NCBI GenBank assembly: GCA_965214255.1
Contig: OZ243948.1
Location: 1,433,885 to 1,497,884 of the forward strand
Length of the DNA: 64,000 bases
Direction: 5' to 3'
Source: Alphaproteobacteria bacterium
Lineage (GTDB): Bacteria > Pseudomonadota > Alphaproteobacteria > SMXP01
Part shown: in pieces, positions 614 through 33,928 of the stretch
Layout: each line of letters begins with the position of its first letter
Numbering within the stretch: the first letter of the stretch is position 1
Notes under the pieces: model-generated
The model's database searches: none
Told to the model about the DNA's origin: nothing
What the model saw: only the letters and a program-made list of their open reading frames with translations
Translations under genes and position numbers: made by a program

Positions 614-1384
614 CTAGTTCAAGACGGCGACGAATTCGTCCGGTCGCGACCAGCACGAAACGGTGGATAAAGGCTCGATCATCTTGAAATCTTCATCGGA
701 CCAGACGTCGGACGTGTCGTCGAACAACGAAACGAACTCGTGGGCCTTCGGTCCTGCGGCGAGGTGATTCAGATCGTGCCAGACTGCCACCGCGTGCTCG
801 GAGACCCTGCGGGCCGCCGCACGGTTTCCGGTAGTCAAGACCAGAACAAGAGAACTTCGCCGCTCGGCGCGAACGTGAAAATCGATCGTCCAGCGATGCC
901 CCGAACGCCCGACCAGCTTCTCACCGGGTTCGAACTCAAACTCCCTCTCGGTAAGGAAGTCGGCGACGTCACCGGTAATAGACTGAACCGCCTGCGTTCG
1001 GAACGTGAACCACAGGTCGGATACGCGCAGGGCCGCCTGCGCGACCCGGGTGACGACCTCCGCAAGGTCGTCGCCGGGCCGACACTTCGCCTGAAGCATG
1101 CCCCGGCGGAACTCGATTCCATGCGTCACGCATGTATCTTCGATAAGCCGCGTCTGCTTCGGTGAGCGGCGCAACGACATGGACTGCATCCGAAGCCAGC
1201 CCGTGGTTTCGGCAAGGTCGCTCACCGTCACCCCGTTGTCATGGACTTGGCAGAAGAGATCGATGTTGTCGCCGTCCGGGTAGAGATAGGGCGTCCGAAT
1301 CCGTTGATGGTCTCCCTGCTCCGAGCAGGTGAACAAGGCGCCCAAGCGTTCCTGAAGATCACGGCAGATTTGGCTGGAGTCCAT
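614..1384 (-). CDS. Hypothetical protein (256 aa) encoded between hsdS and hsdR; no motif recognised
   Basis: ORF with ATG at 1384..1382 and stop 5 bp before the hsdR start. It is co-oriented and tightly packed inside the hsd operon. No signal peptide and no Walker, HEPN or Fic motifs were seen. Confidence 0.55.
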   Translation of the reverse strand: MDSSQICRDLQERLGALFTCSEQGDHQRIRTPYLYPDGDNIDLFCQVHDNGVTVSDLAETTGWLRMQSMSLRRSPKQTRLIEDTCVTHGIEFRRGMLQAKCRPGDDLAEVVTRVAQAALRVSDLWFTFRTQAVQSITGDVADFLTEREFEFEPGEKLVGRSGHRWTIDFHVRAERRSSLVLVLTTGNRAAARRVSEHAVAVWHDLNHLAAGPKAHEFVSLFDDTSDVWSDEDFKMIEPLSTVSCWSRPDEFVAVLN

Positions 1385-1423
1385 CAGAACATCTCACTTG
1401 GTTATCTTCTCGGCCAATGGAGT

Positions 1424-2875
1424 TCACACCGCCGCCGTTTCACGAGAGGCGTCGATATTGTCGGCTTCCGTCGGAGTCTCGTCAAGTCCGGGGTCGTCGG
1501 TCTCGTCTTCGGCGGCGAGGGGGTCGACCTGCGGCAGGGCCGCCGCCGCTTCGCGCACGTCTAGCTTGCCGGTGACGACATCGGCGACGAGGCGGGCGCG
1601 GTATTCGTCGAGCAGTTCGACTTCGCGGTCGGCGCGGGCGATGGCAGCGTCGATGTCGGCGGCAGCCTTGTCGAGATATGCGACGATGGCGGTTTGTTCG
1701 GGGAGGGGTGGTAAAATCACAGAGACTTTTTTCAACTCAGGCCAGTAAAGATTACGCTGTATTGTTCCTACCCCCTTGGAAAAAATCAGATATTGCGAAA
1801 CCATCAATTTTGTGCGTAGCAAGTAATTTGCATATACCGGATTCCAGCAATCGTTGAGACTTAAGACAATGTATGCTGGGCTTACTATTCCTTTGTATTG
1901 GGATACGCCTACCGATCCACGCCAAGCCTGTTGGTTGTTAAGAACAAAATCTCCCGGATCGACAGCTTGATAGTTAATCAAATCAACGCTTGTGGCATTT
2001 GCGCGCTTTTCTTCGACATCAGAAAACCTAACAACAGATTTATCCAGGTAGACGGAAAGAAGCTCTCGTTCCGGACAGTTACGCACGGACTTTAGATTGG
2101 AAACTGCACAGATCGGTAACACCTCCCAATGCGCCGGTACTTCCCCCAGCCATTCGACGCCGGAGTCCTTCATGGGCGCGTCGGGGTCGAGGCCGCGGGT
2201 GACGGCGCGGTGGACGAGGGCCTGCTTTTGCTCTTTGAGCAGAGCCACCAGCTTGCGCTTCGCCTTCGTGAGCCACCGCACCCGCCGGTCTATGTAGTCC
2301 AGATACCGCACGATGGCAGTTTGTTCATCCGGCGCCGTTGGAACCGCGACCGATATTTCTCGCATCCGAGCCTTCGACAAGTCCCACTGTCCAATACGAA
2401 CCCCATCTGAAGCCTTGTTGAAGCTAGGAACATACGCCTTTGATCTTATGGCCGTGTGAAAGAAGTCGCCATCGACTCCATGAAGGGCAAACACGAAGTA
2501 CGCGGGACTCACCAGCCCATTAAATTTCGACACACCATACGAGCCCTGCCACGCCTTCATCTTGTTCATGGCAAATTGACCTTGTTGAACGACCTTGTAA
2601 TTGCTTAGGTCGTCGGGAACGTAATTGTGGTTTTCGTCCCTATTGGAGAGGTCTCTAAGAATCACACCCTGTTCCCGCACCACTGATAGCAGAGGCAAAT
2701 CAGGCTGATTTCTAGTGACAACAGATCGGAGAAGGTGCCTTAGTTTCTTGATTTCCCAATGCGCCGGTACTTCGCCCAGCCACGCGACGCCGGAGTCCTT
2801 CATTTCGGGATAGGGTTCGAGTGTCTTGGCAACGGCTGCGGCCGTCGCTTCCACAGGTCGATCGGTCCCGGTCAT
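1424..2875 (-). CDS. hsdS: Type I R-M specificity subunit HsdS with two target-recognition domains
   Basis: The duplicated conserved segments KDSGVAWLGEVPAHWE and KDSGVEWLGEVPAHWE and the PEQTAIV motifs fit the two-TRD HsdS architecture. Preferred start is the ATG at 2875, which forms an ATGA overlap with the orf126 stop; the ORF track extends to 2902. Confidence 0.9.
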   Translation of the reverse strand: MTGTDRPVEATAAAVAKTLEPYPEMKDSGVAWLGEVPAHWEIKKLRHLLRSVVTRNQPDLPLLSVVREQGVILRDLSNRDENHNYVPDDLSNYKVVQQGQFAMNKMKAWQGSYGVSKFNGLVSPAYFVFALHGVDGDFFHTAIRSKAYVPSFNKASDGVRIGQWDLSKARMREISVAVPTAPDEQTAIVRYLDYIDRRVRWLTKAKRKLVALLKEQKQALVHRAVTRGLDPDAPMKDSGVEWLGEVPAHWEVLPICAVSNLKSVRNCPERELLSVYLDKSVVRFSDVEEKRANATSVDLINYQAVDPGDFVLNNQQAWRGSVGVSQYKGIVSPAYIVLSLNDCWNPVYANYLLRTKLMVSQYLIFSKGVGTIQRNLYWPELKKVSVILPPLPEQTAIVAYLDKAAADIDAAIARADREVELLDEYRARLVADVVTGKLDVREAAAALPQVDPLAAEDETDDPGLDETPTEADNIDASRETAAV

Positions 2876-3252
2876 GGAGCGGCATCCGCCTTGTACCGCC
2901 AACCGCGCTCCGTAGCGGCTACGGTGAGCCGTTTCGCCTTCTTTTCGACTTGCGTGTTGGAGCAGGCGGTGAAATCGATCAGCGCATGAGCGGGATGAGG
3001 CTCAGGATCGGGCTCAACCGGCAAGTCCTGCGCGGCACAGTCGCCACGGGAGACGGCGAGGACGCCGACCGAGGCGAACCCGAGATCTCCCGTGTAATAC
3101 GCCCAGGCGTCTTCAGCCGTAATCAGATCGCCGTCATAAACCGACAGACGCTTGCCGTCCTTGGGGAAAGGTTTGAACGCCTGGCTGGTCACGCGGCCTT
3201 TCTGTACCCAGGACGGGCTAACCTGACGATACAGCAAGGCGTCGTCGTTCAT
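2872..3252 (-). CDS. Hypothetical protein (126 aa), translationally coupled to orf375 upstream and hsdS downstream
   Basis: ATGA overlaps occur at both ends (3249-3252 and 2872-2875). Sequence: MNDDALLYRQVSPSWVQKGRVTSQAFKPFPKDGKRLSVYDGD...HALIDF. No recognisable family. Confidence 0.5.
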   Translation of the reverse strand: MNDDALLYRQVSPSWVQKGRVTSQAFKPFPKDGKRLSVYDGDLITAEDAWAYYTGDLGFASVGVLAVSRGDCAAQDLPVEPDPEPHPAHALIDFTACSNTQVEKKAKRLTVAATERGWRYKADAAP

Positions 3253-4376
3253 GACGCCTTGCCCAGGGTTTTCTCAAGTTTCTCAACGAGCCATGCCCAG
3301 GAATCGTCATCCTCGAGACCGAGCTCGCGGGTCTCTTCGTCGTCGGTCTCCAGGTCGAGTCCGTGCCATGTGCCGCGCTTATCGGCCAAGTGAATATCCA
3401 GCGACAAGTTCCACCGGTCGTTCGACCACTCGGCGCGAATGTCGCCTTCGGGAGTGGGATAGAGGTGCGGCAACACGGTTTCATCGGGATAATGAAGATC
3501 GCAGGCTCTTTCCAGCCAATCGACCCCGTCCGCCGGAGGAGCTTTGCCTTCCCCTTCCAGCCAGCCGTCCTTCAGCAGGCGTATCTCGTCGAGCCGCGCG
3601 CCGATGTCCAGAGGATCGAGGGCGTTGATGTGCTCGATGGAATCGAATCGGACCAATTTTCCGCCGCGATTCACGACGCCTACTCCTTGAATCAGAACCT
3701 TTTGCCCGGCCTGATAGCCGTTGAACACTTCCAATATGGTGTCTCGGTGTTGCGGAGCAATGGGCGCCGCCACCTTCTTGCCGTCAGGCAACTGCAACTC
3801 GAACCGCATATTGTCCTGATCCGCCTCCGGGACCAGGCCGCGAATGGCGGTCTCCTCGGCGATCTCCCGCGCCGAGGCGGATGCGTAGACCAGTCGTCGC
3901 CTGATTTCGCGGTCGAGTCTTGCGGGAGCAGGCCCGCTCCGCGTTCCGAATTCCATGGCTTCCCCTTCCCGAAGGCTTCGCCCCATCCGGTCGAAGTAGC
4001 TGAGCCATTTCTCGGGCAGGTAATCCGTAATTCCCTCTCCTTTTTCAGCGGCGGCAATGGCCGAAACGATCAAATTACGGGCCTTCTCGAAGTACTTCTG
4101 ATTCACCGGCGGAAACAGCGTCGGAGAGGCCGTAACCAGCGAGATCACGGGAACCGCGCTGCCGTCCTCGATGCCCGTCAGCTTCAATTCGATGCCGTTG
4201 GTAAATCCGCGCGGCGATCTTTTTCGGTCAGGATGGTCTTTGAGAAACTCGGTTTTCGCCACCTCGACGATCATCTCCTCAAGGACGGCCAGGTCCTTCA
4301 AAAACTCCAAGGGGATCGCCTTCCCTTCGAAGCGACTTCCGGTCAGCCTGGGTCGCATGAACTCATGTGCGCTCAT
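3249..4376 (-). CDS. Hypothetical protein (375 aa) within the hsd operon
   Basis: Long ORF with good codon periodicity that overlaps the fic stop by 14 bp and orf126 by ATGA. No catalytic motif recognised; the C-terminus is acidic (…LETDDEETRELGLEDDDSWAWLVEKLEK). Confidence 0.55.
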   Translation of the reverse strand: MSAHEFMRPRLTGSRFEGKAIPLEFLKDLAVLEEMIVEVAKTEFLKDHPDRKRSPRGFTNGIELKLTGIEDGSAVPVISLVTASPTLFPPVNQKYFEKARNLIVSAIAAAEKGEGITDYLPEKWLSYFDRMGRSLREGEAMEFGTRSGPAPARLDREIRRRLVYASASAREIAEETAIRGLVPEADQDNMRFELQLPDGKKVAAPIAPQHRDTILEVFNGYQAGQKVLIQGVGVVNRGGKLVRFDSIEHINALDPLDIGARLDEIRLLKDGWLEGEGKAPPADGVDWLERACDLHYPDETVLPHLYPTPEGDIRAEWSNDRWNLSLDIHLADKRGTWHGLDLETDDEETRELGLEDDDSWAWLVEKLEKTLGKAS

Positions 4377-5607
4377 CGTTCACCTCGACGGTTTCCCCGC
4401 CCGGACTCTCGCCCGCCAATCCCTCGCTCTCACGTTCCGGCGCGGCATCCAGTTCGGTTCCTTCATTGAGGATGGCCAAGTACCGGCCATAAGCGAACAG
4501 GCGCCCGTAGTGCCTTCCCGTAACTTCACGGACAATCCCGTAGTCGACAAGCCGGTCCATCGCCGATGAAACGGCGGGAAAGGAGAGCACCTTGCGCTTG
4601 CAAATCTCGGAAATGGAGAGGATCGGTCGTTCCGTCAGGGCCTGATGCACGAGCAAGGCCGAACCGGTGCGGCGGCCCCGCCTTTCTATGGCTTCCCTGT
4701 CTTTCATAAACATCTCGGACAGGCGGCGAGAGGTGGCGACCGCGTCTTCGGCGCCCACCCGCACGCTTTCGAGAAAGAAAGCCAGCCACGCTTCCCAGTC
4801 ACCGGTGCGGCGCACATGGTCCAACAAATCATAATACGTGCTTTGGCGGCGCTTGAAGTAAAGGCTCAAATACAGCAGCGGTTCCCGCAATACGCCGGAC
4901 CGACAAAGCAGAAGAACGATCAACAGCCGCCCGATGCGCCCGTTGCCGTCGAGGAAGGGATGGACGGTCTCGAACTGTACATGGGCGAGCCCCGCGCGGA
5001 TCAATACCGGCAGCCCGTCGTCCTCCGCGTTCAGAAAGCGCTCCAGGTCGGACATGCAGTCCTGCACGGCGGTATACGGCGGGGGCACGAATACCGCGTT
5101 GCCGGGCCGGGTGCCGCCAATCCAGTTCTGCGAACGGCGGAATTCGCCGGGCGCCTTGTTGCTTCCCCGCCCTCTCCGCAACAACACGCCGTGAATCTCG
5201 CGGATCAGACGATTGGACATCGGGAAGCCTTCCCGCAGGCGGCTCAGGCCGTGCTCCAGGGCGGCCACATGGTTCGAGACTTCGACGACATCGTCCAGCG
5301 GCACGCCGGACCTCTCCTGCGACTCATAAAGCAGGAGATCGGAAAAGGACGATTGCGTTCCCTCTATCTGCGAGGACAGGACGGCTTCCTTGCGTACATA
5401 GGCGTAAAGAAAGAGCGTCGAGTCGGGTAAAAACGCCGAGATGTTATCGAGCCGGCCGAGGGCGAGGGCCGCCGATTCGAAGGACTGTTGCAGAGCGCCG
5501 TCCAGGACGGGCGGGGGATCGGGCGGCAGCGGCGCAGGCAGAAAGGCGCGGACCCGTTCGCCCCCCGCGCTCGTGATTTCGTATCCGCCTATTTCTCCGC
5601 GCTCCAT
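4363..5607 (-). CDS. fic: Fic-family protein (adenylyltransferase/AMPylator fold) with an N-terminal inhibitory helix motif
   Basis: Canonical Fic motif HPFLDGNGRIGRLL (HxFx[DE]GNGRxxR). An upstream [ST]xxxE[GN] inhibitory motif (SSQIEG) is consistent with a class II arrangement. C-terminal region is wHTH-like. ATG at 5607..5605. Confidence 0.85.
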   Translation of the reverse strand: MERGEIGGYEITSAGGERVRAFLPAPLPPDPPPVLDGALQQSFESAALALGRLDNISAFLPDSTLFLYAYVRKEAVLSSQIEGTQSSFSDLLLYESQERSGVPLDDVVEVSNHVAALEHGLSRLREGFPMSNRLIREIHGVLLRRGRGSNKAPGEFRRSQNWIGGTRPGNAVFVPPPYTAVQDCMSDLERFLNAEDDGLPVLIRAGLAHVQFETVHPFLDGNGRIGRLLIVLLLCRSGVLREPLLYLSLYFKRRQSTYYDLLDHVRRTGDWEAWLAFFLESVRVGAEDAVATSRRLSEMFMKDREAIERRGRRTGSALLVHQALTERPILSISEICKRKVLSFPAVSSAMDRLVDYGIVREVTGRHYGRLFAYGRYLAILNEGTELDAAPERESEGLAGESPGGETVEVNDERT

Positions 5608-5686
5608 ATCGGATGAGTACCGAGTGATTTAAAGGAAATTGAATTTACCACTGTGAAATTAAAATTTCACGCAAAAAATTTAATTT
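5563..5686. repeat. Direct repeat copy A (~124 bp): AT-rich segment plus the first ~15 codons of fic
   Basis: About 92% identical to 5947..6069, including the stretch gagtaccgagtgatttaaaggaaattgaatttaccactgtgaaattaaaatttcacgcaaaaaatttaatt. Confidence 0.8.
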
Positions 5687-5743
5687 GCTGTAACCGGCAG
5701 TCCTTCGGGTTCCCGCTCCAAAGCCGGAATGCGGCTCCATATG

Positions 5744-5903
5744 TAACGCAGCCTTTCATACGGCAAGAATATGGTTCTATATGTTCGGCAGCCGTTCATA
5801 TAGCGGGCATTTGGGCCCATATGTAACGCAGCCGTTCATATAGCGGGAATGTGGACCCATATGTAACGCAGCCTTGAATATGGCGTTCTGTTGAGGCGGC
5901 CTT
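5744..5903. repeat. 4 x 40-bp tandem repeat, each unit containing CATATG/CATATA palindromic elements
   Basis: The units ggctccatatgtaacgcagcctttcatacggcaagaatat, ggttctatatgttcggcagccgttcatatagcgggcattt, gggcccatatgtaacgcagccgttcatatagcgggaatgt and ggacccatatgtaacgcagccttgaatatggcgttctgtt are directly adjacent. GC is about 45%. Confidence 0.8.
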
Positions 5904-5946
5904 GAACATTCATGCGGGACACTCCCCGACGATCTCGCCCGGCAGT

Positions 5947-6069
5947 CCCCGCGCTCGTGGTTTCGTATCCGCCTGTTTCTCCGCGCCGCATATCGGATGA
6001 GTACCGAGTGATTTAAAGGAAATTGAATTTACCACTGTGAAATTAAATTTTCACGCAAAAAACTTAATT
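5947..6069. repeat. Direct repeat copy B with a degenerate fic start (MRRGETGGYETTSAG) fused to an hsdM-3'-end-like tail
   Basis: Reverse-complement reads atg cgg cgc gga gaa aca ggc gga tac gaa acc acg agc gcg ggg, then act gcc ggg cga gat cgt cgg. This tail resembles the hsdM terminus gct gct ggg cga gat cgt cgg caa gta g. Copy B lies 40 bp downstream of the true hsdM stop. Confidence 0.7.
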
Positions 6070-6109
6070 CTCTACAAGTAAAACCTTACATCAAGACAGG
6101 TTCAGGTTC

Positions 6110-8083
6110 CTACTTGCCGACGATCTCGCCCAGCAGCCCCCCGCTCTCCCGTCCCAGCGCGAGGATGTCGCCTCGAATCTCCTCAAGGGAGCGCATCGGC
6201 TCCGGCTTGTAGAAGTGGCGCGTGAAGCTGATCTCGTAGCCGATCTTGACAGCTTCCGGGCGATACCAGGCGTCGGGCGCGTAGGGCAAGACCTCGCGCT
6301 TCAGGAACGCCTCTATGCCGCCCTTCTCGGTGAGCGGGACCTGCTCCGTGTCGCGCAGGTCCGGGTCCGGCTCGTACTCGACCACGGCGGGTTCGCCCTC
6401 GACGGTCGCCTCGAACAAGCCATGCAGAGGGTCCGCCCCCCCCCGCCTGTGGATCTTGCGGATGACGGGCGGCGCGTCCTCGGAGCGCGCGCCGGTCTCT
6501 TTGAGCGTCTTGATCTCCGCCGCCTTGCAGGCGCGGTTCGGGTCGGCGCCCTCGATGCGGAGCGGGCGCTCCACGACCACTTTCCAATACCCGAAAGCCT
6601 CGTTGTCGAAGATCCTGCTCCGCTCGGTTTCCTCGAAATCGAGGAACGCCTCGCAGATGCGCCGGATGTCGTCCTCGCCCAACTCGCAGTTCTTCTTGCC
6701 CAGATTCTTACGCAGGGGCCGGTACCACTCGGTCGCGTCGATGAGTTGCACTTTGCCCCGGCGGTGCTCCGGCTTGCGGTTGGTCAGCACCCAGACGTAG
6801 GTGGCGATGCCGGTGTTGTAGAACAGGTTCAGCGGCAGCGCGACGATCGCTTCCAGCCAGTCGTTCTCGATGATCCAGCGGCGGATGTTGCTCTCGCCCT
6901 GGCCGGCGTCGCCGGTGAACAGCGAACTGCCGTTGTGGACCTCGGCGATGCGGCTGCCGAGGGGCGTGTCCCGCTTCATCTTGGAGAGCAGGTTGACGAG
7001 GAACAGCATCTGCCCGTCGCTCGACCGCGTCACCAGGGAATATTCCGGGTCGTCGCCGTGTTGGATCATAAAGCGCGGATCGTGCATGTCCTTCTTGCCG
7101 CCCATGCGCTCCAGGTCCGTCTTCCAGCTTTTGCCGTAGGGCGGATTGGAGAGCATGAAGTCGAACGCGCGCGGGTGGGGGTAGGCATCGTTGGCCAGGG
7201 TGGAGTGTTGCGGGCCGCCCTCGATTTTATCCGCGTCATCGCCCTCGCCCTTGAGCATCAGGTCGGCCTTGCAGATCGCCGCGGTCTCCGCGTTGATCTC
7301 CTGGCCGTAGAGGTGCGTCGAGACCTGTTTCCCGCGTTCCGCGGCCAGTTCCTGCAGCGTCTGTTCCGCCAGGGTCAGCATGCCGCCGGTCCCGCACGCG
7401 CCGTCATAGAGAAGGTACGTGCCGGATTCGATCCGGTCGGAGATCGGCTGGAACACCAGCTTCGCCATCAGCCGCACCGCGTCGCGGGGCGTCCAGTGCT
7501 CACCGGCCTCCTCGTTGTTCTCCTCGTTGAAGCGGCGCACCAGTTCTTCGAAGATCGTACCGATGGCGTGGTTGTCGAGGCCCGGGAGCTTGATATCGCC
7601 TTTGGCGTCCTTGACGGGTTCCGGGCTCAGGTTCACCTTGGGGGAGGTGAATTTCTCGATCAAGACCCCGAGCGCGTCGGCGCGGCTCAGGCGGGGGATC
7701 TGGTTGCGGAACTCGAAGTTGTCGAGTATCTCCTGCACGTTCGGCGAGAATCCGTCGAGATAGGCCAAGAAGTCCGCTTCAAGTTGGTGCTGGTTGCCTC
7801 GCGCCCGCAGATCGTTGAGCGTGAATTGGGAGGTGTTGTAGAACGCCTGCCCCGACGCCTGGCGCAAGGCGGCGCTCTGGTCGACCAGACCGGCCCGGTC
7901 GAGACTGGCCTTCATGTCGAGGACCGCCCGTTTGGTGTCTTCGAGGACCGCGTCGAGACGACGCAGGACGGTCATCGGGAGGATCACGTCGCGGTACTTG
8001 CCCCGCGTGTAGAGGTCCCGGAGCACGTCATCGGCGATTCCCCAAATGTAGTTCGCAATCCACGTTACATCGCCGTTGGTCAT
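6110..8083 (-). CDS. hsdM: Type I R-M N6-adenine DNA methyltransferase subunit HsdM (long form, 657 aa)
   Basis: NPPYG catalytic motif (LSNPPYGKSW) and a SAM-binding region (LYDGACGTGGML). Neighbours hsdS and hsdR lie on the same strand. Confidence 0.9.
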   Translation of the reverse strand: MTNGDVTWIANYIWGIADDVLRDLYTRGKYRDVILPMTVLRRLDAVLEDTKRAVLDMKASLDRAGLVDQSAALRQASGQAFYNTSQFTLNDLRARGNQHQLEADFLAYLDGFSPNVQEILDNFEFRNQIPRLSRADALGVLIEKFTSPKVNLSPEPVKDAKGDIKLPGLDNHAIGTIFEELVRRFNEENNEEAGEHWTPRDAVRLMAKLVFQPISDRIESGTYLLYDGACGTGGMLTLAEQTLQELAAERGKQVSTHLYGQEINAETAAICKADLMLKGEGDDADKIEGGPQHSTLANDAYPHPRAFDFMLSNPPYGKSWKTDLERMGGKKDMHDPRFMIQHGDDPEYSLVTRSSDGQMLFLVNLLSKMKRDTPLGSRIAEVHNGSSLFTGDAGQGESNIRRWIIENDWLEAIVALPLNLFYNTGIATYVWVLTNRKPEHRRGKVQLIDATEWYRPLRKNLGKKNCELGEDDIRRICEAFLDFEETERSRIFDNEAFGYWKVVVERPLRIEGADPNRACKAAEIKTLKETGARSEDAPPVIRKIHRRGGADPLHGLFEATVEGEPAVVEYEPDPDLRDTEQVPLTEKGGIEAFLKREVLPYAPDAWYRPEAVKIGYEISFTRHFYKPEPMRSLEEIRGDILALGRESGGLLGEIVGK

Positions 8084-8128
8084 GGGCCGGGGTCTCGGAA
8101 GGGTGAAGGGCGCGGCGATCTTACCCGA

Positions 8129-8157
8129 CGGGCGCGGGGAAAACAGCCCCCCGCCCG
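8129..8157 (-). terminator. GC-rich hairpin downstream of the phosphatase gene (possible terminator, no U-tract)
   Basis: cgggcgcgggg-aaaacag-ccccccgcccg forms an 11-bp stem with one mismatch. It lies 20 bp past the stop at 8177. Confidence 0.25.
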
Positions 8158-8176
8158 ATACGATTCGACAGGGCGT

Positions 8177-8881
8177 TCAGCGCCGCCGGGCATGACGATA
8201 ACGCGCCGCCGGCGCGCCGTGGGCCTGGAGAAATCGAGGGTCGCCGCCGTCGAGAACGACGGCCGTCATGGCGCCGGAAAAATAGGCGCCGGTATCGATG
8301 CCGATTCGATTGGGCTTGAGTTCCGGGTCCGCACGGGGCGAATGGCCGTGCACCACCTTCACCGGAGCGCCCTTATAGGTGTAGGCGCGCTCGCTGTTCA
8401 AAAACCGATCCCTGATCCAGTAGAGATCGCGCGTTTTCTGATGCTCCAGATCGGTCTCCGGGTCGACCCCCGCATGGGCGAAATAGAAACCGTCCCGCAC
8501 ATGATGGGAGGCAAGGCCGGCGATCCAGTCGCGGTGAGCTTTCGGCACCTCCCCGCCGTAGCTTGTCAAAGTCTGCGCGCCGCCGTTGAGGAGCCACACA
8601 TGGCCGTGTTTTCCGGCGTAATAGTCCTCCATCAACGCTTCGTGGTTGCCTTTGAGGCATATTTCGTCGAACCCGTGCTTGGCGAGGGGTTTTTCCATCA
8701 GCAACCCGACGACGCCTGCGGAATTTTCGCCGCGGTCGATATAGTCGCCCAGATAGACGACGGTGCGCGCCCGCTCCCGATAATGCTCGGCCGCGTCTTT
8801 CGCTATCAGGTCCACGAGCCGGGCGAACTGGTCGAGCATGCCGTGAACGTCGCCCACGGCGTAGGTCACGCGCCGCGTCAT
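8177..8881 (-). CDS. Metallophosphoesterase, Ser/Thr protein phosphatase 1 / ApaH-like family
   Basis: Phosphoesterase motifs GDVHG, GDYIDRG and GNHE. Confidence 0.85.
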   Translation of the reverse strand: MTRRVTYAVGDVHGMLDQFARLVDLIAKDAAEHYRERARTVVYLGDYIDRGENSAGVVGLLMEKPLAKHGFDEICLKGNHEALMEDYYAGKHGHVWLLNGGAQTLTSYGGEVPKAHRDWIAGLASHHVRDGFYFAHAGVDPETDLEHQKTRDLYWIRDRFLNSERAYTYKGAPVKVVHGHSPRADPELKPNRIGIDTGAYFSGAMTAVVLDGGDPRFLQAHGAPAARYRHARRR

Positions 8882-8924
8882 GGGACTCTCCCGGTTCGGA
8901 CGATTTGTCGACTGCGCGCCATTC

Positions 8925-10637
8925 TCAGCGAATGAAACCGAGACTTTCGAGTTTGACGATCAGGCGGTGGGCCGCCAGATCGGGAGACAGTTGTTCCGTA
9001 TCTATGGAGATTTCGGGATTTTCGGGAACGTCGTAGGGGTCGCTGATACCCGTGAACTCCTTGATCAGGCCGGCGCGCGCCTTGGCGTAAAGCCCCTTTC
9101 GGTCCCGCCGTTCGCACACCTGCAAGGACGTCGCGACATAGGACTCCACGAAACCGCCGACGGGCTCGATCATCTCGCGCACCGCCCGCCGCGTCGCGGC
9201 ATAGGGCGCTATAGGCGCGCAAATGGCGATGCCTCCGTTCTTGGTGATCTCGCTCGCCACATATCCTATGCGCAGGATGTTGAGATCGCGGTGTTCTTTC
9301 GAAAAGCCCAGTTCGCTCGACAGGTTCTTGCGGACGATATCGCCGTCCAAAAGCGTGATCCGCCGCCCGCCGATTTCCATGAGCTTTATCATCAGAGCGT
9401 TGGCGACGGTCGACTTGCCCGACCCGGAAAGACCCGTAAAGAACACGGTGAAGCCCTGCTCGTGCCGCGGCGGATGGGTCTTGCGCAGTTCGCTGATGAC
9501 GGCGGGGAACGAAAACCAGTCGGGAACGTCGAGACCCTCGCGCAGCCGTCGGCGCATTTCGGTGCCCGAAATCTCGAGGACCGTCTCGTCGGACCCGGTC
9601 CGGTCCACCGGCACGTACTGGTTCCGCTCCCGGACATAGACCATCGCGCGGAACGGCACCATGGCGATGCCCAACTCGTCTTCGAACTTCACCATGAGGT
9701 CCTGAGCGTCGTAAGGACCGTAAAAATCCTTGCCGTTCCTGTCCTTCCCCGGGCCCGCATGGTCGCGCCCCACGATGAAATGCGTGCAGCCGTAATTTTT
9801 TCGGATAAGGGCGTGCCAAAGCGCTTCGCGCGGGCCCGCCATGCGCATCGCCAGAGGCAGCAGGCTCAGCGCCGTCGTTTGATCCGGGTATTGATGCAGC
9901 ACATGCTCGTAGCAGCGCACGCGAGTGAAATGGTCGACGTCGCCCGGCTTGGTCATGCCGACGACCGGATGAATGAGCAGATTGGCCTCCGCCTCGCGCG
10001 CGGCCCTGAAGGTCAGTTCCTGGTGCGCGCGGTGCATGGGATTGCGCGTTTGAAAGGCGACGACCCTGCGCCAGCCCAGCTTCTCGAAGCGGTCGCGCAG
10101 CTCCCGGGGGCTGTATCTCAAATGTTTGAAATCGTAATGGATCGGGGCCTGGACCCCGGCGAGGGCGCCGCCCAGGTAAACCGGATGGGCGCGATTGAAA
10201 AGATAGTTGACGCCGGGATGCGTGTCGTCGACGGTGCCGAACACCGCCCGGGCTTCGGATTCCTTGTCGGGCGTCCATTTCTCTTCGACTTCGAGGCTTG
10301 CGATATGGACCCCTTCACGGTCTCGAAGCACGAGGGTCTCGTCGATGTCGACCGTAGCGGCGAACTCCTCGGACACGTCCAGCGTGACGGGCATGGGCCA
10401 CAGCACGCCGCTGTCAAGCCGCATGTCTTTCAAGACGCTCTCGTAGTCGGCTTGTTTCAAAAAACCGTCGAGCGGCGAGAACGCCCCGTTGAGCAACAAT
10501 TCCACATCGCAGATCTGGCGCTCGGTCAAATCCCAGGACTTGAAATCAAGCGCCCGTTTCTTTTCGCGCTCCGCCTGCTCGGACGACAGATAAAGAATCT
10601 TGAGTTCGCCGCCGTGCGGCTCTTTGAAAGCCCCCAT
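8925..10637 (-). CDS. sat: Bifunctional sulfate adenylyltransferase (ATP sulfurylase) / adenylylsulfate kinase
   Basis: N-terminal ATP-sulfurylase region (FQTRNPMHRAHQEL) and C-terminal APS-kinase P-loop (GLSGSGKST). Confidence 0.9.
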   Translation of the reverse strand: MGAFKEPHGGELKILYLSSEQAEREKKRALDFKSWDLTERQICDVELLLNGAFSPLDGFLKQADYESVLKDMRLDSGVLWPMPVTLDVSEEFAATVDIDETLVLRDREGVHIASLEVEEKWTPDKESEARAVFGTVDDTHPGVNYLFNRAHPVYLGGALAGVQAPIHYDFKHLRYSPRELRDRFEKLGWRRVVAFQTRNPMHRAHQELTFRAAREAEANLLIHPVVGMTKPGDVDHFTRVRCYEHVLHQYPDQTTALSLLPLAMRMAGPREALWHALIRKNYGCTHFIVGRDHAGPGKDRNGKDFYGPYDAQDLMVKFEDELGIAMVPFRAMVYVRERNQYVPVDRTGSDETVLEISGTEMRRRLREGLDVPDWFSFPAVISELRKTHPPRHEQGFTVFFTGLSGSGKSTVANALMIKLMEIGGRRITLLDGDIVRKNLSSELGFSKEHRDLNILRIGYVASEITKNGGIAICAPIAPYAATRRAVREMIEPVGGFVESYVATSLQVCERRDRKGLYAKARAGLIKEFTGISDPYDVPENPEISIDTEQLSPDLAAHRLIVKLESLGFIR

Positions 10638-10830
10638 CGATCAGTTCTCCAAACGCACCAGGATCCGCCGCCGAATCGCTGCGCGAAGCGATAGTTTAGT
10701 TCCGGGGACAAGGCAAGCCGTTTTCCACAATTACTTGAGGAAACCCCGGCGCGCGGAGCGAAGATCGGCGATGGGCGCGCGCGGTCGAGACGGCTCCCGC
10801 CGTGACGTCAACGGCGGATGATATTGTCCG

Positions 10831-11307
10831 TCACGGCCTGTCGCCGGGGCCGTCCGCGGCCCGGTCGTCTTCACCGTCGTTCGACCGCCGTATCGGCGAC
10901 GCGGCGCGCCGCCAAGAGCCCCGCTCCACTCGATAGCGCCCGCGGGCGGAAAACGACTCGCCCGGCGGCTTCACGACCTCGACGAGCGCGCCGGCCAGCG
11001 AAATACAACTGCGGTGATTGAGCATATGGACGGATGTCTCGCCTCCCGTCGTCGCCCGGACAAGGACGGCCTGAGCGTCGTCGTCGCCGCGGCGGAAGCC
11101 TCGATTGCACACGGTCACGCCGCGGGCGCGGGCGCCCGTATCGACAATCACGGCGTCGTTCAGTTCGGTGACCGCCCAGGAATTCCAACCGCCGGTTGCA
11201 ATCCTGCTCAAGGCGACGGAGCGAAACGAGAGCGAAAACGAAAGCGCGACCGCGCCGAGCGCGATCACGACGGCGAAAACCGCCAAACACAGATTCACGA
11301 TCTTCAT
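10831..11307 (-). CDS. Hypothetical exported protein (158 aa) with an N-terminal hydrophobic signal-like segment
   Basis: MKIVNLCLAVFAVVIALGAVALS... is signal-like. The alternative overlapping frame 10871..11464 is arginine-rich and low-complexity, so it was rejected. Confidence 0.4.
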   Translation of the reverse strand: MKIVNLCLAVFAVVIALGAVALSFSLSFRSVALSRIATGGWNSWAVTELNDAVIVDTGARARGVTVCNRGFRRGDDDAQAVLVRATTGGETSVHMLNHRSCISLAGALVEVVKPPGESFSARGRYRVERGSWRRAASPIRRSNDGEDDRAADGPGDRP

Positions 11308-11478
11308 GAAAATGCCCTTCCCTGATAATGAACGGCTGTCGACTGCGGCGCCGGAAGCGGTCTCGAACCCGGTCGTGCAACCGGCCCCGAACGAGGACCG
11401 GATGGTGTTTCGGGGACATTAAATCATGCTTAAACATCCGCGAGCGACGGCGAGAGGCGCTCACGCCGAAGCGGCGTA

Positions 11479-12411
11479 TCAGGCGGCGGGGCGAAAGCCG
11501 AGCGGGAGCCCGGCGTCGGGGACGAAACCGTACATGTCTTCATCGGGCACCGCTGCGGCCACCACCTTGCGCACCTCCAGCAATTGGTGCAGGTCGATGC
11601 CCGTCTTGAGACCCATCGCTTCGAGCATGAAGACCAGATCTTCGGTGACGATGTTGCCGCTGGCGCCCGGCGCGAACGGACAGCCGCCGATGCCGCCGAG
11701 GGAACTGTCGATCGTGGTGACGTCTTCCTCGATCGCCGCCAGGACATTGGCGAGGCCCAGGCCGCGGGTGTTGTGCAAATGAATGCCCGTGACCGCGTCC
11801 GCGCCGACGGCGGCGCGCACCGCGCGGATCATGTCTTTGACCTGCTTCGGGTTGGCGTAGCCGGTCGTATCCGACAGTCCGACTTCGTCGCAGCCCGCCG
11901 CCATCAACTGCTCCGCAAGGGAAACCACCTTCGACTGCGGGATCTCGCCTTCCAGGGTGCATCCGAACGCCGTCGACAAGCCGCCTTCGAACTTGGGCCT
12001 CTCGTCGGCAGGTAGACCCCTCAGAAGCGCCGCGATGCCGCGCACCTCGTCCAACATCCGGGCGTGGTCGCGGTTGACGTTTTTGAGACTGTGGGTCTCG
12101 CTCACGGACAAGGGAATGGTGATCTTGTGGACGCCGGTTTTGACGGCGTTTTCGGCCCCCTTCAGATTCGGCACCAGCGCCGCGACGGTGAGGCCCTCGA
12201 TGGTGAGCGCATGTTCGACGACGGCCGCCGTATCGGCCAGTTGCGGCAAGATCCTGGGCGGCACGAAAGAGCCGACCTCGATTTCCGGAACGCCGGCCGC
12301 CGCTTCCGCCGCGATCCATGCCTTCTTGGCCTCGGTCGGCATGATGGAGTCGATGCTTTGGAGGCCGTCTCGCGGGCCGACTTCGCTGATCTCGATATCA
12401 ATGGCGCTCAT
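11479..12411 (-). CDS. Hydroxymethylglutaryl-CoA lyase
   Basis: Motifs EVGPRDGLQ, GGCPFAPGASGN and the HxH-type metal ligands typical of the HMGL-like TIM barrel. Confidence 0.85.
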   Translation of the reverse strand: MSAIDIEISEVGPRDGLQSIDSIMPTEAKKAWIAAEAAAGVPEIEVGSFVPPRILPQLADTAAVVEHALTIEGLTVAALVPNLKGAENAVKTGVHKITIPLSVSETHSLKNVNRDHARMLDEVRGIAALLRGLPADERPKFEGGLSTAFGCTLEGEIPQSKVVSLAEQLMAAGCDEVGLSDTTGYANPKQVKDMIRAVRAAVGADAVTGIHLHNTRGLGLANVLAAIEEDVTTIDSSLGGIGGCPFAPGASGNIVTEDLVFMLEAMGLKTGIDLHQLLEVRKVVAAAVPDEDMYGFVPDAGLPLGFRPAA

Positions 12412-12538
12412 GAACCTTTACCATGTCTCGTGAATGGATTAAGTGAAACTCCGCAAACGCGTTTTACCCCATGACGCCGCGCGACGGAAGCATATGTCAC
12501 TGATCCTTTGACCTGTTTTACCAAGGAACGAAGCCCCG

Positions 12539-13729
12539 ATGTCAACCGGTTCTGACCTGCCTTTGTCAGGAATTAAAGTCGTCGAATTCACCCACATGGT
12601 GATGGGTCCGACCGTCGGCGTCATACTTGCCGACCTGGGCGCCGACGTGATCAAAGTGGAGCCCCTGAAGGGCGACAATACGCGCCGCCTCATCGGGTCC
12701 GGGTCCGGCTATTTCCCGATGTACAACCGCAACAAAATGAGCGTTTGCCTCGACCTCAAAGCCCCGGAGGGCAACGAGGTCGCGCGCAAGCTCATCGAGC
12801 GGGCGGACATCATGATCGAAAATTTCCGTCCGGGCGCCATGGAAAAACTGGGATACGGATACGCCGACCTCGCGGCGGACAACCCCCGCCTGATCTATTG
12901 CTCGGCCAAGGGGTTCCTCGCCGGGCCTTACGAAAAGCGCACGGCGCTCGACGAGGTTTGCCAAATGATGGGAGGGCTCGCCTACATGACCGGGCCGCCG
13001 GGGCGGCCCCTGCGCGCGGGCGCGTCCGTGATCGACGTCACCGGCGGCATGTTCTCCGTGATCGGAATATTGGCGGCCCTTGAAGAGCGCCATCGCACGG
13101 GCAAGGGACAGGAAGTCAAAAGTTCGCTCTTCGAAACCACGGTCTATCTGGTCGGCCAGCACATGGCTCAATACGCCGTCACCGGCGCGCCGGCGAAACC
13201 CATGCCCGTGCGGGTCTCCGCATGGGCCGTTTACGACGTGTTCGAAACCAGGGACGAAGGCCAGGTGTTCGTCGGCGTGGTGAGCGACACCCAATGGAAA
13301 AAGTTTTGCGAATTTTTCGATCTCTCCGAATTCGGCAACGACCGGACCATGGCGGCCAACAACGACCGCGTCAAAAAACGCGACGTCATACTCCCGAAAA
13401 TCCGGGAGATGTTCAAAAAGTTCACGCGCGACGAACTGCTCGCCAAGCTCGAAGACATCGGTTTGCCGTTCGCGCCGATCATGCGGCCCGAAGACATGTT
13501 CGAAGATCCTCACCTGACGGCGTCGGGAGGGTTGTTGGACTTGACGATTCCGGGCGGCGATAAAACCAGATTGCCCGCCCTTCCTCTCGAAATGGGCGGC
13601 CAGCGTTTCGGCGTGCGCCGAGACTTGCCGAGGGAAGCGGAGCACAGCCGAGAAACCTTGAGCGCGCTGGGCTATTCGGAGGCGGAGATCGACAGGCTTG
13701 TCGCCGACGGCATCGTTCGGGTCGAGTAG
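12539..13729 (+). CDS. CoA-transferase family III (CaiB/BaiF-like)
   Basis: N-terminal LSGIKVVEFTHMVMGPTVGVILADLGADVIKVEP is the hallmark of family III CoA-transferases. Confidence 0.85.
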   Translation: MSTGSDLPLSGIKVVEFTHMVMGPTVGVILADLGADVIKVEPLKGDNTRRLIGSGSGYFPMYNRNKMSVCLDLKAPEGNEVARKLIERADIMIENFRPGAMEKLGYGYADLAADNPRLIYCSAKGFLAGPYEKRTALDEVCQMMGGLAYMTGPPGRPLRAGASVIDVTGGMFSVIGILAALEERHRTGKGQEVKSSLFETTVYLVGQHMAQYAVTGAPAKPMPVRVSAWAVYDVFETRDEGQVFVGVVSDTQWKKFCEFFDLSEFGNDRTMAANNDRVKKRDVILPKIREMFKKFTRDELLAKLEDIGLPFAPIMRPEDMFEDPHLTASGGLLDLTIPGGDKTRLPALPLEMGGQRFGVRRDLPREAEHSRETLSALGYSEAEIDRLVADGIVRVE

Positions 13730-33128: not shown

Positions 33129-33343
33129 GCTCGAATCCTCGACGCGAACCCCAAAACCCGGAAACCGGCCTTTTTCAATCTCACAAAGGCGTTTATACCT
33201 TCTTCGCGCGCCGCGCCGCAACGGCAGTTTCCGGATAGGCAACGCCAACCGGCCGGAGCGCAGCCGTGTCGGCACCCTCGCCGTGCGGGCGATGGATGAC
33301 AGTCATGGCGCCGAGAAGCCGTGCAAGAGGAAGGAACATCCCG

Positions 33344-33928
33344 ATGGATACGCAAGCCGTGTTTCATTATCTCTGCGAGAACCGCCGCAGCGCGGATGAC
33401 ATTCCCGATCACAAGGGACCGGGCGTATACGCCATCTTCGCCCGCTCAACCGGATGCTTGCCCGGCATCAAGCTGGAGAAAAGCAGACTCGTCTACGTGG
33501 GTCACGGCAAGGACCTCGCCGAGCGCACCGGCGACCATTTCACGGAGCAGAAGAGCGGCCGATCTACCCTAAGGCGGAGCCTCGGGGCGCTGCTCAAATC
33601 GGAGTTGGGCCTGAAGGCCGAACCCTGGTCGGGGGGCCGCTCGGAGAGTAACTATACAAATTATCGTTTCGCAGACAACGGCGAAGCGGACTTGAGCGCA
33701 TGGATGCGACGCGACCTCACATGTGCAATCTATCCCTTCAACGGCGACACGGAAACCCTTAAAAAACGGCTGAAAACCCTTGAGAAACAACTGATCGAGG
33801 AAAACGAACCGCCCCTCAACCTGAAAAGTTGGCCTAATCGTTATCCTAATCCTTATAAAGAGGAAATTGAGGAATTGAGGAAACAGTGCAGGGAAGAGGC
33901 GAAACGCACCCTTAGCGGCTCCGCGTAG
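33344..33928 (+). CDS. Stand-alone GIY-YIG nuclease-domain protein
   Basis: GPGVYAIFA…LVYVGHGKDLAERTGDHF resembles the GIY-(10-17)-YIG-(x)-R block (compare UvrC VIYVGKAKDLKKRLSSYF). ATG 33344 is preceded by aggaagga. The 3' third is low-GC. Confidence 0.6.
   Translation: MDTQAVFHYLCENRRSADDIPDHKGPGVYAIFARSTGCLPGIKLEKSRLVYVGHGKDLAERTGDHFTEQKSGRSTLRRSLGALLKSELGLKAEPWSGGRSESNYTNYRFADNGEADLSAWMRRDLTCAIYPFNGDTETLKKRLKTLEKQLIEENEPPLNLKSWPNRYPNPYKEEIEELRKQCREEAKRTLSGSA

What the first reader, a model, noticed from the sequence alone, without database searches (positions are those of the whole stretch)
5744..5903. Four perfect-register 40-bp tandem repeats with CATATG palindromes between the two promoter copies
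The region is low-GC for this genome. Each unit carries catatg…catata elements. Tandem iterons like this in an operon leader usually bind a regulator, or they mediate copy-number (phase) variation of promoter spacing. Repeat number could tune expression of the fic-hsdS-hsdR operon.
Basis: seen in the sequence. Interest (0 to 1): 0.5.

Follow-up and report, generated by a model that had tools for sequence, protein, structure and literature searches.

The report
Variable 40-bp operator-like array of SoFic
The four 40-bp repeats are real and belong to the movable promoter region of a SoFic-type anti-phage toxin gene: a related array with the same 40-bp period but 0 to at least 7 copies sits before the same gene in unrelated bacteria, so it is probably a set of docking sites for the toxin's own DNA-binding domain.

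Summary
Four units lie in exact 40-bp register at 5722-5882. They are imperfect copies (71-76% identical) and one is degenerate. They sit between two copies of the AT-rich fic promoter.

The array is not a feature of the type I restriction operon. It is a cis element of the SoFic (Fic plus winged-helix) defence cassette. A 97%-identical strain has 2 units instead of 4. Rhodothermales genomes, whose SoFic genes have quite different neighbours, carry a homologous array against the same promoter. There the period is also exactly 40 bp and the copy number runs from 0 to at least 7.

Each unit has a conserved 27-bp imperfect dyad (CCATrTTnAAGGCTGssTTrCrTATGG) and a 13-bp spacer that is not conserved. 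No copy was found elsewhere in the window, in 80 other fic loci (apart from one weak pair), or in the viral, genome or metagenome scans.

Published work shows that SoFic and CccR dimers bind their own promoters. My reading of the published S. oneidensis promoter sequence finds boxes 39-40 bp apart. About 20 of 71 array-less fic promoters have direct repeats 39-41 bp apart.

Best reading (about 0.5): an expandable array of SoFic operator sites that tunes autoregulation. Binding and any effect on expression are inferred, not shown.

The parts
5722..5882 (-). Array of four 40-bp units, read on the minus strand, which is the direction of fic. Units are 5882-5843, 5842-5803, 5802-5763 (degenerate) and 5762-5723. 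Each has a 27-bp dyad core and a 13-bp spacer.
5883..5909 (-). Truncated distal unit ATGTTCAAGGCCGCCTCAACAGAACGC. Its AAGG lies 28 bp, not 40, from that of the next unit. It starts at the stop codon (TGA, 5912-5910) of the hsdM fragment.
   Evidence: Read. It resembles the Rhodothermales consensus by eye and has no separate statistical support.
5688..5706 (-). Possible degenerate promoter-proximal unit GAAGGACTGCCGGTTACAG. Its AAGG lies 50 bp, not 40, from that of the last full unit.
   Evidence: Read, by eye only.
5608..5687 (-). Active AT-rich fic promoter and leader (copy A, 30% GC). It holds near-palindromic boxes AAATTAAATTT (5676-5686) and AAATTCAATTT (5636-5646) exactly 40 bp apart, and the palindrome GTGAAATTTTAATTTCAC (5653-5670) between them.
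4363..5607 (-). SoFic-type Fic protein, 414 aa: Fic_N, Fic core with HPFLDGNGRIGR, the inhibitory motif SSQIEG, and a C-terminal domain that aligns to the SoFic winged-helix domain.
   Evidence: (PADLOC SoFic 1.3e-112)
5947..6069 (-). Copy B: a second fic promoter plus the first 45 nt of a different fic allele (MRRGETGGYETTSAG...). It is 95% identical to 5563-5685.
5921..5950 (-). 30-nt fragment of an hsdM 3' end, 87% identical to 6112-6141. It is joined to the fic fragment at a GCGGGG microhomology and is absent from L001.
6110..8083 (-). hsdM, the type I methyltransferase, the gene upstream of the array.
614..4376 (-). Genes downstream of fic: PDC-M32A (3249-4376), PDC-M32B (2872-3252), hsdS (1424-2902) and PDC-M24B/DUF1828 (614-1384).

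Best explanation
The array is a variable-number tandem array of operator-like sites. It belongs to the SoFic (Fic plus C-terminal winged-helix) anti-phage cassette and lies just upstream of the cassette's own AT-rich promoter.

Each 40-bp unit carries a conserved 27-bp imperfect dyad, CCATrTTnAAGGCTGssTTrCrTATGG, and a 13-bp spacer that is free to vary.

Most likely, dimeric SoFic binds the units through its winged-helix domains. The array would then extend the gene's autoregulatory operator and hold extra toxin dimers next to the promoter. Units are gained and lost by slippage or unequal recombination, which would shift the expression set-point of a toxic gene from strain to strain.

Shown here: the array itself, its exact 40-bp period, conservation of the core across very distant hosts, its fixed position at the sofic promoter, its copy-number variation, and its absence elsewhere.

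Inferred: that SoFic binds it, and that binding changes expression.
For: 1. A homologous array in an unrelated setting. An HMM built from the window units alone hit L051 100-150 nt upstream of fic (E 0.0016). L051, L022, L088, L089, L090 and L091 (Rhodothermales-clade SoFic) all have units at exactly 40-bp spacing against the AT-rich promoter.
2. fic is the only shared gene. The neighbours there are IrrE/M78, DUF4411 and a STAND NTPase, with no hsdM.
3. Footprint pattern. Columns 1-27 are well conserved (most columns 0.8-2.0 bits, lowest 0.58), while columns 28-39 carry 0.1-0.7 bits apart from column 29. The period is identical in both lineages.
4. Dyad symmetry of the core. 85% of cells are symmetric, against at most 62% in slid registers.
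5. Copy-number variation. 4 against 2 units in strains 97% identical. In Rhodothermales the counts are 0, 2-3, 3, 5, 6 and at least 7.
6. The protein is a SoFic with the C-terminal domain.
7. Literature. SoFic dimers bind their own promoter DNA sequence-specifically (bioRxiv 10.64898/2026.07.09.737422). CccR represses its own gene through two boxes 36 bp apart centre to centre and leaves a 46-nt footprint (PMC9755527).
8. My reading of the published S. oneidensis promoter sequence. CATGTCGAT boxes lie 39 and 40 bp apart, and TGTATAGATA boxes 40 bp apart.
9. In 71 array-less fic promoters, direct 9-mer repeats peak at 40-41 bp: 19 loci, against about 0.6 per distance in shuffles. The window promoter's own boxes are 40 bp apart.
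10. The unit is not dispersed.
Against: - No binding or expression data exist for this array.
- SoFic of S. oneidensis bound best to the 100 bp nearest the start codon, not to distal DNA.
- The array core differs from the AT-rich promoter boxes. A weight matrix from the array's left half found only 6 sense-strand hits in promoters, against 3.9 +/- 2.1 in shuffles.
- Ten related Rhodothermales-clade loci, and L087 (Fic 81% identical to the window's), work without any array, so it is dispensable.
- Unit 3 of the window is degenerate, which suggests relaxed constraint.
- The units are head-to-tail, whereas a two-fold symmetric dimer is expected to prefer inverted sites. The internal dyad only partly answers this.
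- CccR is a distant relative (E 2e-13), and its dimer geometry differs from SoFic's.
- The 40-41-bp peak is inflated by shared ancestry of the promoters, and a coding control also shows peaks.
- Copy numbers from short-read assemblies are unreliable (N gap in L090).
Confidence: 0.5

Rival explanations
1. Neutral minisatellite. The array is a by-product of slippage or unequal crossing-over in a recombination-scarred intergenic spacer. Its 40-bp period would simply be inherited from the 40-bp-spaced direct repeats of the promoter. It would have no function of its own.
For: Copy number is very unstable, and many related loci have none. Unit 3 is degenerate. The surrounding region shows duplication, gene fragments and gene conversion. 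Array-less loci keep a single proto-unit, ATTCAAGGCnnCG, fused to the first promoter box. Tandem arrays keep their period without selection.
Against: The 27-bp core is kept between lineages whose spacers, promoters and flanks have diverged to random levels. The proximal unit is far better conserved than the neighbouring intergenic DNA between L051 and L022. The array stays at the same place relative to the promoter in two unrelated genomic contexts.
Confidence: 0.2
2. Binding sites for a host factor other than SoFic, such as a nucleoid protein or a global regulator, or a structural insulator between read-through from hsdM or promoter copy B and the active promoter.
For: The core is GC-richer than the AT-rich promoter boxes and unlike them. 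In the window the array separates two promoters.
Against: The hosts are phylogenetically distant, and only fic is shared between the loci. A host factor would have to be conserved in all of them and leave sites nowhere else in the DNA examined.
Confidence: 0.1
3. Recombination or integration site used to move the SoFic cassette into new loci, such as the 3' end of hsdM.
For: The array lies at the upstream edge of the cassette, next to an hsdM 3' fragment. In L019 and L029, hsdM C-terminal pieces are duplicated around fic.
Against: No recombinase lies beside the array-bearing loci. The transposases seen in L094 and L095 are in array-less loci. In Rhodothermales the loci with and without the array share both flanks, so the array is an internal polymorphism and not a junction. 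The junction in the window lies at a GCGGGG microhomology outside the array.
Confidence: 0.07
4. A transcribed element: each unit forms an RNA hairpin in a leader and acts on transcript stability, attenuation or translation.
For: The dyad tolerates G-T positions, which would be G-U pairs on the sense strand. In the window, promoter copy B could transcribe through the array.
Against: Folding energy is not unusual (z -1.6 sense, -0.9 antisense). There is no Rfam match. The inner pair 10-16 is broken in 14 of 22 units without compensation. The implied loop is 1-3 nt. In Rhodothermales the array lies upstream of the only promoter, facing a divergent gene, so it is not in a leader.
Confidence: 0.05
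5. A control element of the type I restriction-modification operon, for example methylation-dependent or spacing-dependent phase variation of hsdS/hsdR expression. This is.
For: It sits inside a type I operon. The unit contains AAC-N6-GTT, which has the form of a bipartite type I recognition site.
Against: Homologous arrays occur with no type I genes nearby. L087 and other hsdM-fic loci lack it. No controller protein gene is present.
Confidence: 0.05

Closest known systems
Autoregulatory operators of Fic-winged-helix proteins: CccR of Yersinia pseudotuberculosis (PMC9755527) and SoFic of Shewanella oneidensis (bioRxiv 10.64898/2026.07.09.737422)
   Same: The protein family is the same (SoFic-type Fic with a C-terminal winged-helix domain). 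The repeated or dyad boxes lie in the gene's own upstream region. Box spacing is about 36-40 bp, and the CccR footprint (46 nt) is close to one unit in length.
   Different: The known operators have two to five boxes inside or next to the core promoter, and no tandem array has been described. Here 2 to at least 7 head-to-tail 40-bp units lie upstream of the promoter, their number varies, and the core sequence differs from the AT-rich promoter boxes. Binding has not been tested.
Plasmid iterons with their Rep initiators (winged-helix proteins that bind direct repeats as monomers and inverted repeats as dimers to autorepress)
   Same: Head-to-tail arrays of protein-sized sites lie next to the gene of a winged-helix protein. 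Variation in site number has a titration-like logic.
   Different: There is no rep gene, origin, DnaA boxes or AT-rich unwinding element. The period is 40 bp, not about 22 bp. The associated protein is a toxin and enzyme, not an initiator.
Promoter-associated variable-number tandem repeats of contingency (phase-variable) loci
   Same: Repeat number differs between close strains, and the repeats lie upstream of a gene whose dosage matters.
   Different: Classic cases use 1-9-bp units between or near the -35 and -10 elements, or inside coding sequence. Here the units are 40 bp, each with a conserved dyad, and they lie upstream of the core promoter.
Defence genes embedded in type I restriction-modification operons (PADLOC PDC systems, PrrC-like insertions)
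   Same: The window shows hsdM-[SoFic]-[PDC-M32A/B]-hsdS-[PDC-M24B], with recombination scars at the insertion point.
   Different: This describes the setting, not the array. The array travels with SoFic and also occurs outside restriction operons.

Membership tests
Autoregulatory operator of a Fic-winged-helix (SoFic/CccR-type) protein | The adjacent gene encodes a Fic protein with a C-terminal winged-helix DNA-binding domain | tested here: met
   PADLOC SoFic model at 1.3e-112 over residues 19-381. The alignment to SoFic structures (3eqx, 9tc*) runs through residues 45-382, which includes the C-terminal domain.
Autoregulatory operator of a Fic-winged-helix (SoFic/CccR-type) protein | The sites lie in the gene's own upstream or promoter region | tested here: met
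   In the window the array lies 115-275 nt upstream of the fic ATG and about 35 nt from the AT-rich promoter. In Rhodothermales loci it is flush against the promoter.
Autoregulatory operator of a Fic-winged-helix (SoFic/CccR-type) protein | Repeated or dyad-symmetric boxes with spacing suited to a dimer | tested here: met
   27-bp dyad core, 85% symmetric. Period exactly 40 bp. For comparison: CccR 36 bp, S. oneidensis boxes 39-40 bp.
Autoregulatory operator of a Fic-winged-helix (SoFic/CccR-type) protein | The protein binds the sites and changes transcription | not testable with these tools
   This needs EMSA or footprinting and reporter assays.
Autoregulatory operator of a Fic-winged-helix (SoFic/CccR-type) protein | The array boxes share the recognition sequence of the promoter's own boxes | tested here: inconclusive
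   There are resemblances by eye (ATTCAA in both in the window, GTTA in both in Rhodothermales). The weight-matrix scan of 76 promoters gave 6 sense hits against 3.9 +/- 2.1 in shuffles.
Plasmid-type iterons | An adjacent rep gene and origin features, with a period of about 17-22 bp | tested here: not met
   The neighbours are hsdM and fic, with no Rep family hit. The period is 40 bp.
Dispersed intergenic repeats (REP/BIME/MITE) | Many copies scattered through the genome with no positional association | tested here: not met
   No other copy in the 64-kb window and none in 80 fic loci outside fic promoters except one weak pair. Exact scans gave 0 in genome contigs, 0 true hits in metagenome contigs and 0 in viral contigs. 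The complete host genome could not be scanned.
CRISPR array | Conserved repeats separated by unique spacers of similar length, usually with cas genes | tested here: not met
   The 13-bp spacers are nearly the same within an array. No cas gene was found among the neighbours annotated at 614-13729.
Phase-variable promoter repeats (contingency locus) | Repeat number varies between closely related strains | tested here: met
   4 against 2 units at 97% flank identity. 0 to at least 7 in the Rhodothermales clade.
Phase-variable promoter repeats (contingency locus) | The repeat tract lies within the core promoter or coding sequence, so that unit number switches expression on and off | tested here: not met
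   The array lies upstream of the AT-rich promoter boxes, and its period is not a multiple of 3.
Restriction-modification controller (C-protein/C-box) element | A C-protein gene, and association with the RM operon | tested here: not met
   No such gene is present. The array occurs without RM genes in L022 and L088-L091.

The most novel reading that the evidence does not exclude
The array is a docking rack. It would keep a strain-specific number of SoFic dimers bound and catalytically silent, or poised, beside their own gene. DNA binding would control the AMPylation/deAMPylation balance, as DNA does for Coxiella CbFic2. Phage-induced changes to host DNA would then release or activate a pre-loaded toxin pool. 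On this reading, unit number sets the abortive-infection threshold and not merely transcription.
Probability: 0.1. Interest if true: 0.8.

Novelty: new variant of a known kind. Interest (0 to 1): 0.6.

Why it matters
SoFic is a widespread single-gene anti-phage toxin that AMPylates EF-Tu. How cells hold it in check is an open question.

The array is a conserved cis element that travels with the gene, has footprint-sized units and varies in copy number. If it is an operator array, it would be:
- a natural, tunable autoregulatory or titration device for a toxic defence gene;
- a marker of cassette ancestry across phyla;
- a ready test substrate for the recently reported promoter binding by SoFic, since 1, 2, 4 and 6 units can be compared directly.

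It also shows that type I restriction operons take up such cassettes with their own control regions intact.

Tried and rejected
- Exact scans for the unit found nothing useful. Genome contigs gave 0. Metagenome contigs gave 0 with a strict pattern; a lenient two-core pattern gave 5 hits, all unrelated low-GC repeats. Viral contigs gave 0 in three scans.
- The window's exact Fic protein is not on record.
- Rfam found nothing at gathering threshold and only chance-level hits at E up to 10. The window has no tRNA.
- RNA folding of either strand is not unusual.
- The sigma-70 promoter and terminator scan found nothing at 5400-6300, not even for fic, so it is uninformative here.
- blastn-short of the intergenic region against all loci matched only the fic 5' coding sequence.
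- I asked whether the unit derives from the 40 nt after the hsdM stop in copy B, or from L087. There is a resemblance by eye, but nhmmer gave no support, so it remains speculation.
- The weight-matrix test of whether the array box equals the promoter box was not significant on the sense strand.
- Plasmid-borne homologues (55-59% identity) have TTATTAAAGG or TTAATTAA boxes spaced 20-32 bp as well as 40 bp. The 40-bp spacing is therefore not universal in the wider family.
- CRISPR, iteron, REP, attachment-site and C-box readings were rejected on defining features (see the membership table).
- A literature search found no description of such an array.

Full report
**1. The observation**

The repeat is real. 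Tandem Repeats Finder reports period 40, 3.8 copies, 76% matches and no indels at 5722-5873. The repeat finder gives 40-bp start-to-start spacing. A 24-nt probe from one unit finds three matches where shuffles give none.

Read on the minus strand, the direction of the genes, the units are 5882-5843, 5842-5803, 5802-5763 and 5762-5723. The core-to-core spacings are 40, 40 and 40.

"Perfect register" is correct, but the copies are imperfect, and unit 3 has five core mismatches. A truncated unit (5883-5909) and a possible degenerate one (5688-5706) flank the four. GC is 48.7%, against 60.5% for the window.

**2. The setting**

All genes here are on the minus strand:

| Coordinates | Gene |
|---|---|
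| 6110-8083 | hsdM |
| 5608-6109 | 502-nt intergenic region holding the array |
| 4363-5607 | Fic protein, 414 aa |
| 3249-4376 | PDC-M32A |
| 2872-3252 | PDC-M32B |
| 1424-2902 | hsdS |
| 614-1384 | PDC-M24B / DUF1828 |

No hsdR gene lies between position 1 and hsdM.

The Fic protein matches the PADLOC SoFic model at 1.3e-112. It aligns to the SoFic crystal structures through its C-terminal domain. It has the catalytic motif HPFLDGNGRIGR and the inhibitory motif SSQIEG. The locus is therefore a type I restriction operon with defence cassettes embedded in it.

**3. Scars around the array**

- A 123-nt stretch (5563-5685), made of the AT-rich fic promoter plus the first 45 nt of fic, is repeated at 5947-6069 with 95% identity.
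- The upstream copy encodes a different fic allele (MRRGET... against MERGEI...).
- That copy is joined, at a GCGGGG microhomology, to a 30-nt fragment of an hsdM 3' end (5921-5950). The fragment's reading frame ends in TGA at 5912-5910, exactly where the truncated first unit begins.

My inference is that an incoming segment (hsdM end, array, promoter, fic) recombined into a resident hsdM-promoter-fic locus. On that view the array arrived as part of the incoming cassette.

**4. A close relative**

L001 is an ENA metagenome contig whose Fic is 98% identical. It is 97.7% identical to the window over 9.8 kb upstream and 96.4% across fic and PDC-M32.

L001 has the same promoter duplication but only two units, and it lacks the 62 nt that hold the hsdM fragment. 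In each strain both promoter copies share a strain-specific 8-nt indel, which points to gene conversion between the copies. The hsdS target-recognition domains are mosaic between the two strains.

**5. Search for the unit elsewhere**

- Exact scans found no true match in one genome per species, in JGI metagenomes or in viral contigs.
- The rest of the window has no copy.
- Among 80 fic loci from species-representative genomes, the core and the window's promoter sequence were absent at up to 3 and 6 mismatches.

**6. The key result**

An HMM built only from the window and L001 units hit L051 at E 0.0016. L051 is a Rhodothermales MAG, and the hit lies 100-150 nt upstream of its fic start. L051 has three units at 40-bp spacing against the AT-rich promoter, and L022 has two to three.

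I then fetched relatives of the L022 Fic:

| Locus | Units |
|---|---|
| L088 | 6 |
| L091 | 5 |
| L090 (same Fic protein as L091) | at least 7, either side of an assembly gap |
| L089 | 3 (two scored by the core pattern, third by eye) |
| L092-L097, L103-L106 | 0 |

The array-less loci keep a single proto-unit, ATTCAAGGCnnCG, fused to the first promoter box.

Every array has a period of exactly 40 bp. The neighbours in these genomes are IrrE/M78, DUF4411, a STAND NTPase and an outer-membrane protein, with no hsdM. The only gene common to all array-bearing loci is fic. The array is therefore a cis element of the SoFic cassette and not of the restriction system.

**7. Anatomy of the unit**

Across 22 non-redundant units, columns 1-27 are well conserved: most carry 0.8-2.0 bits and the lowest carries 0.58. 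Columns 28-39 carry 0.1-0.7 bits, apart from column 29 at 1.0.

The consensus is CATgTTaAAGGCTGssTTrCrTATGG followed by 13 variable bases. The spacer is GTCCACATTCCCGC-like in the window lineage and AGCGAGGCGGACGC-like in Rhodothermales, which is no better than random similarity. The cores, by contrast, agree at about 20 of 27 positions.

The core is an imperfect dyad centred on column 13. It reads CCATrT..AAGGC.GCCTT..rTATGG and is most regular in L090/L091. In the symmetric register 85% of cells pair, against at most 62% in slid registers. The inner pair 10-16 is broken in 14 of 22 units without compensation. Folding energies are ordinary. In Rhodothermales the array lies upstream of the only promoter. 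An RNA role is therefore unlikely.

**8. Link to what is known**

- CccR is a Fic-HTH toxin (PDB 7XUX, E 2e-13 to this protein). It represses its own gene by binding AGATAATCAT-N26-ATGATAATCT, which puts the boxes 36 bp apart centre to centre, and it leaves a 46-nt footprint (PMC9755527).
- SoFic dimers, but not monomers, bind their own promoter DNA specifically, best in the 100 bp nearest the start codon (bioRxiv 10.64898/2026.07.09.737422).
- In Coxiella CbFic2, DNA binding drives dimerisation and enzyme activity (PMC10628234).
- I read the S. oneidensis promoter sequence given in that preprint's Table S2. CATGTCGAT boxes lie on the sense strand at 191, 230 and 270 (39 and 40 bp apart), with inverted copies at 162 and 242. 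TGTATAGATA boxes lie at 45 and 85 (40 bp apart), with inverted copies at 62 and 102. This is my own reading, not the authors' claim.

**9. A family-wide spacing**

I examined the 120 nt upstream of the ATG in 71 non-redundant fic loci without arrays. Direct 9-mer repeats (at most 1 mismatch) peak at 40 bp (6 loci) and 41 bp (13 loci). Almost every other distance has 3 loci or fewer, block shuffles give about 0.6 per distance, and there is a second peak at 30 bp (8 loci).

The boxes resemble GTTATTG or TTATTAAG and lie near -80 and -40. The window's own boxes, AAATTAAATTT (5676-5686) and AAATTCAATTT (5636-5646), are exactly 40 bp apart.

Two caveats apply. The promoters are homologous, so the counts are not independent, and a coding control also shows peaks. 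More distant plasmid homologues space their boxes 20-32 bp apart as well as 40 bp.

**10. Interpretation**

The facts in hand are:
- a conserved dyad core with a free spacer;
- a fixed period that equals the promoter's own box spacing and is close to the footprint of a related dimer;
- a constant position at the sofic promoter in unrelated genomes;
- a protein family known to bind its own promoter.

Together these favour an expandable array of SoFic-binding sites that extends the autoregulatory operator. Unit number would change by slippage or unequal exchange.

I put this at about 0.5. Binding is untested, and the array core does not demonstrably match the promoter boxes. The array is also dispensable in many relatives, and one unit here is decaying.

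The main rival is a neutral minisatellite whose period is inherited from the 40-bp box spacing (0.2). Less likely are another binding factor (0.1), a recombination site (0.07), an RNA element (0.05) and a restriction-operon control element (0.05).

**11. Novelty**

Autoregulation of Fic-winged-helix toxins is known. I found no description, in the literature searched, of a tandem, copy-number-variable array of 40-bp operator-like units that moves with the SoFic cassette across phyla. I class it as a new variant of a known kind and rate its interest at 0.6.

Noticed in passing
window 5563-5685, 5947-6069 and 5921-5950: The fic promoter plus 45 nt of a different fic allele is duplicated and fused to a 30-nt hsdM 3' fragment at a GCGGGG microhomology. 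In each strain both promoter copies share a strain-specific 8-nt indel, which suggests gene conversion between the copies.
   Followed up: yes
window 614-8083: A type I restriction operon with embedded defence cassettes: hsdM, SoFic, PDC-M32A/B, hsdS, PDC-M24B. No hsdR lies between position 1 and hsdM. Against L001, the hsdS target-recognition domains are mosaic, and a DUF6978 gene is present only in L001.
   Followed up: partly
fic loci L002-L081 and L092-L097, 120 nt upstream of the ATG: SoFic-family promoters carry two direct-repeat boxes (GTTATTG or TTATTAAG types) near -80 and -40. About 20 of 71 loci have strict 9-mer repeats 39-41 bp apart, and there is a second peak at 30 bp. An inverted box often lies near -23.
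   Followed up: partly
S. oneidensis SoFic upstream 300 bp (Table S2 of bioRxiv 10.64898/2026.07.09.737422): The published promoter fragment holds CATGTCGAT boxes 39 and 40 bp apart and TGTATAGATA boxes 40 bp apart, each with inverted partners. The preprint text I read (abstract, DNA-binding passages and Table S2) does not mention this periodicity.
   Followed up: partly
L006 1555-1625 and L008 2279-2341 (minus strand): Two weak array-like units 41 bp apart (ATTGTTAAATGCTGCGTTTAATAT and ATTTTCAAAGGCAGCGTTTAATAT) lie between a DNA ligase gene and a DEAD-box helicase gene, 4.4 kb from fic, in Nitrospirales MAGs. They could be chance, a relic or a second target.
   Followed up: partly
L019 3814-7530; L029 3035-5940: In other genomes fic sits inside or beside duplicated hsdM C-terminal fragments. 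This suggests repeated cassette exchange at the hsdM 3' end.
   Followed up: partly
L021 5204-5845; L038 4539-5101; L031 5444-5517: Other, unrelated tandem repeats lie upstream of fic: 242 bp x 2.7, 70 bp x 8 and 36 bp x 2.1.
   Followed up: no
L094, L096 and L097 compared with L095 (about 150 nt upstream of fic): A 15-bp tandem duplication, GATGATGTGCAAGG, is present in two copies in three contigs and one copy in L095, although all of these except L097 encode the same Fic protein.
   Followed up: no
window 29816-30469: The 108-129-bp tandem repeats are coding repeats of a Sel1-repeat protein (ORF 29513-30712, minus strand; Pfam Sel1, 7 stretches).
   Followed up: yes
window 33266-33928 and 33752-33883: Short low-complexity tandem repeats fall at the 3' end of a GIY-YIG nuclease-domain ORF.
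   Followed up: no
L103 4130-4167: A second Fic gene starts about 1.5 kb downstream of the first in this Rhodothermales-clade contig.
   Followed up: no
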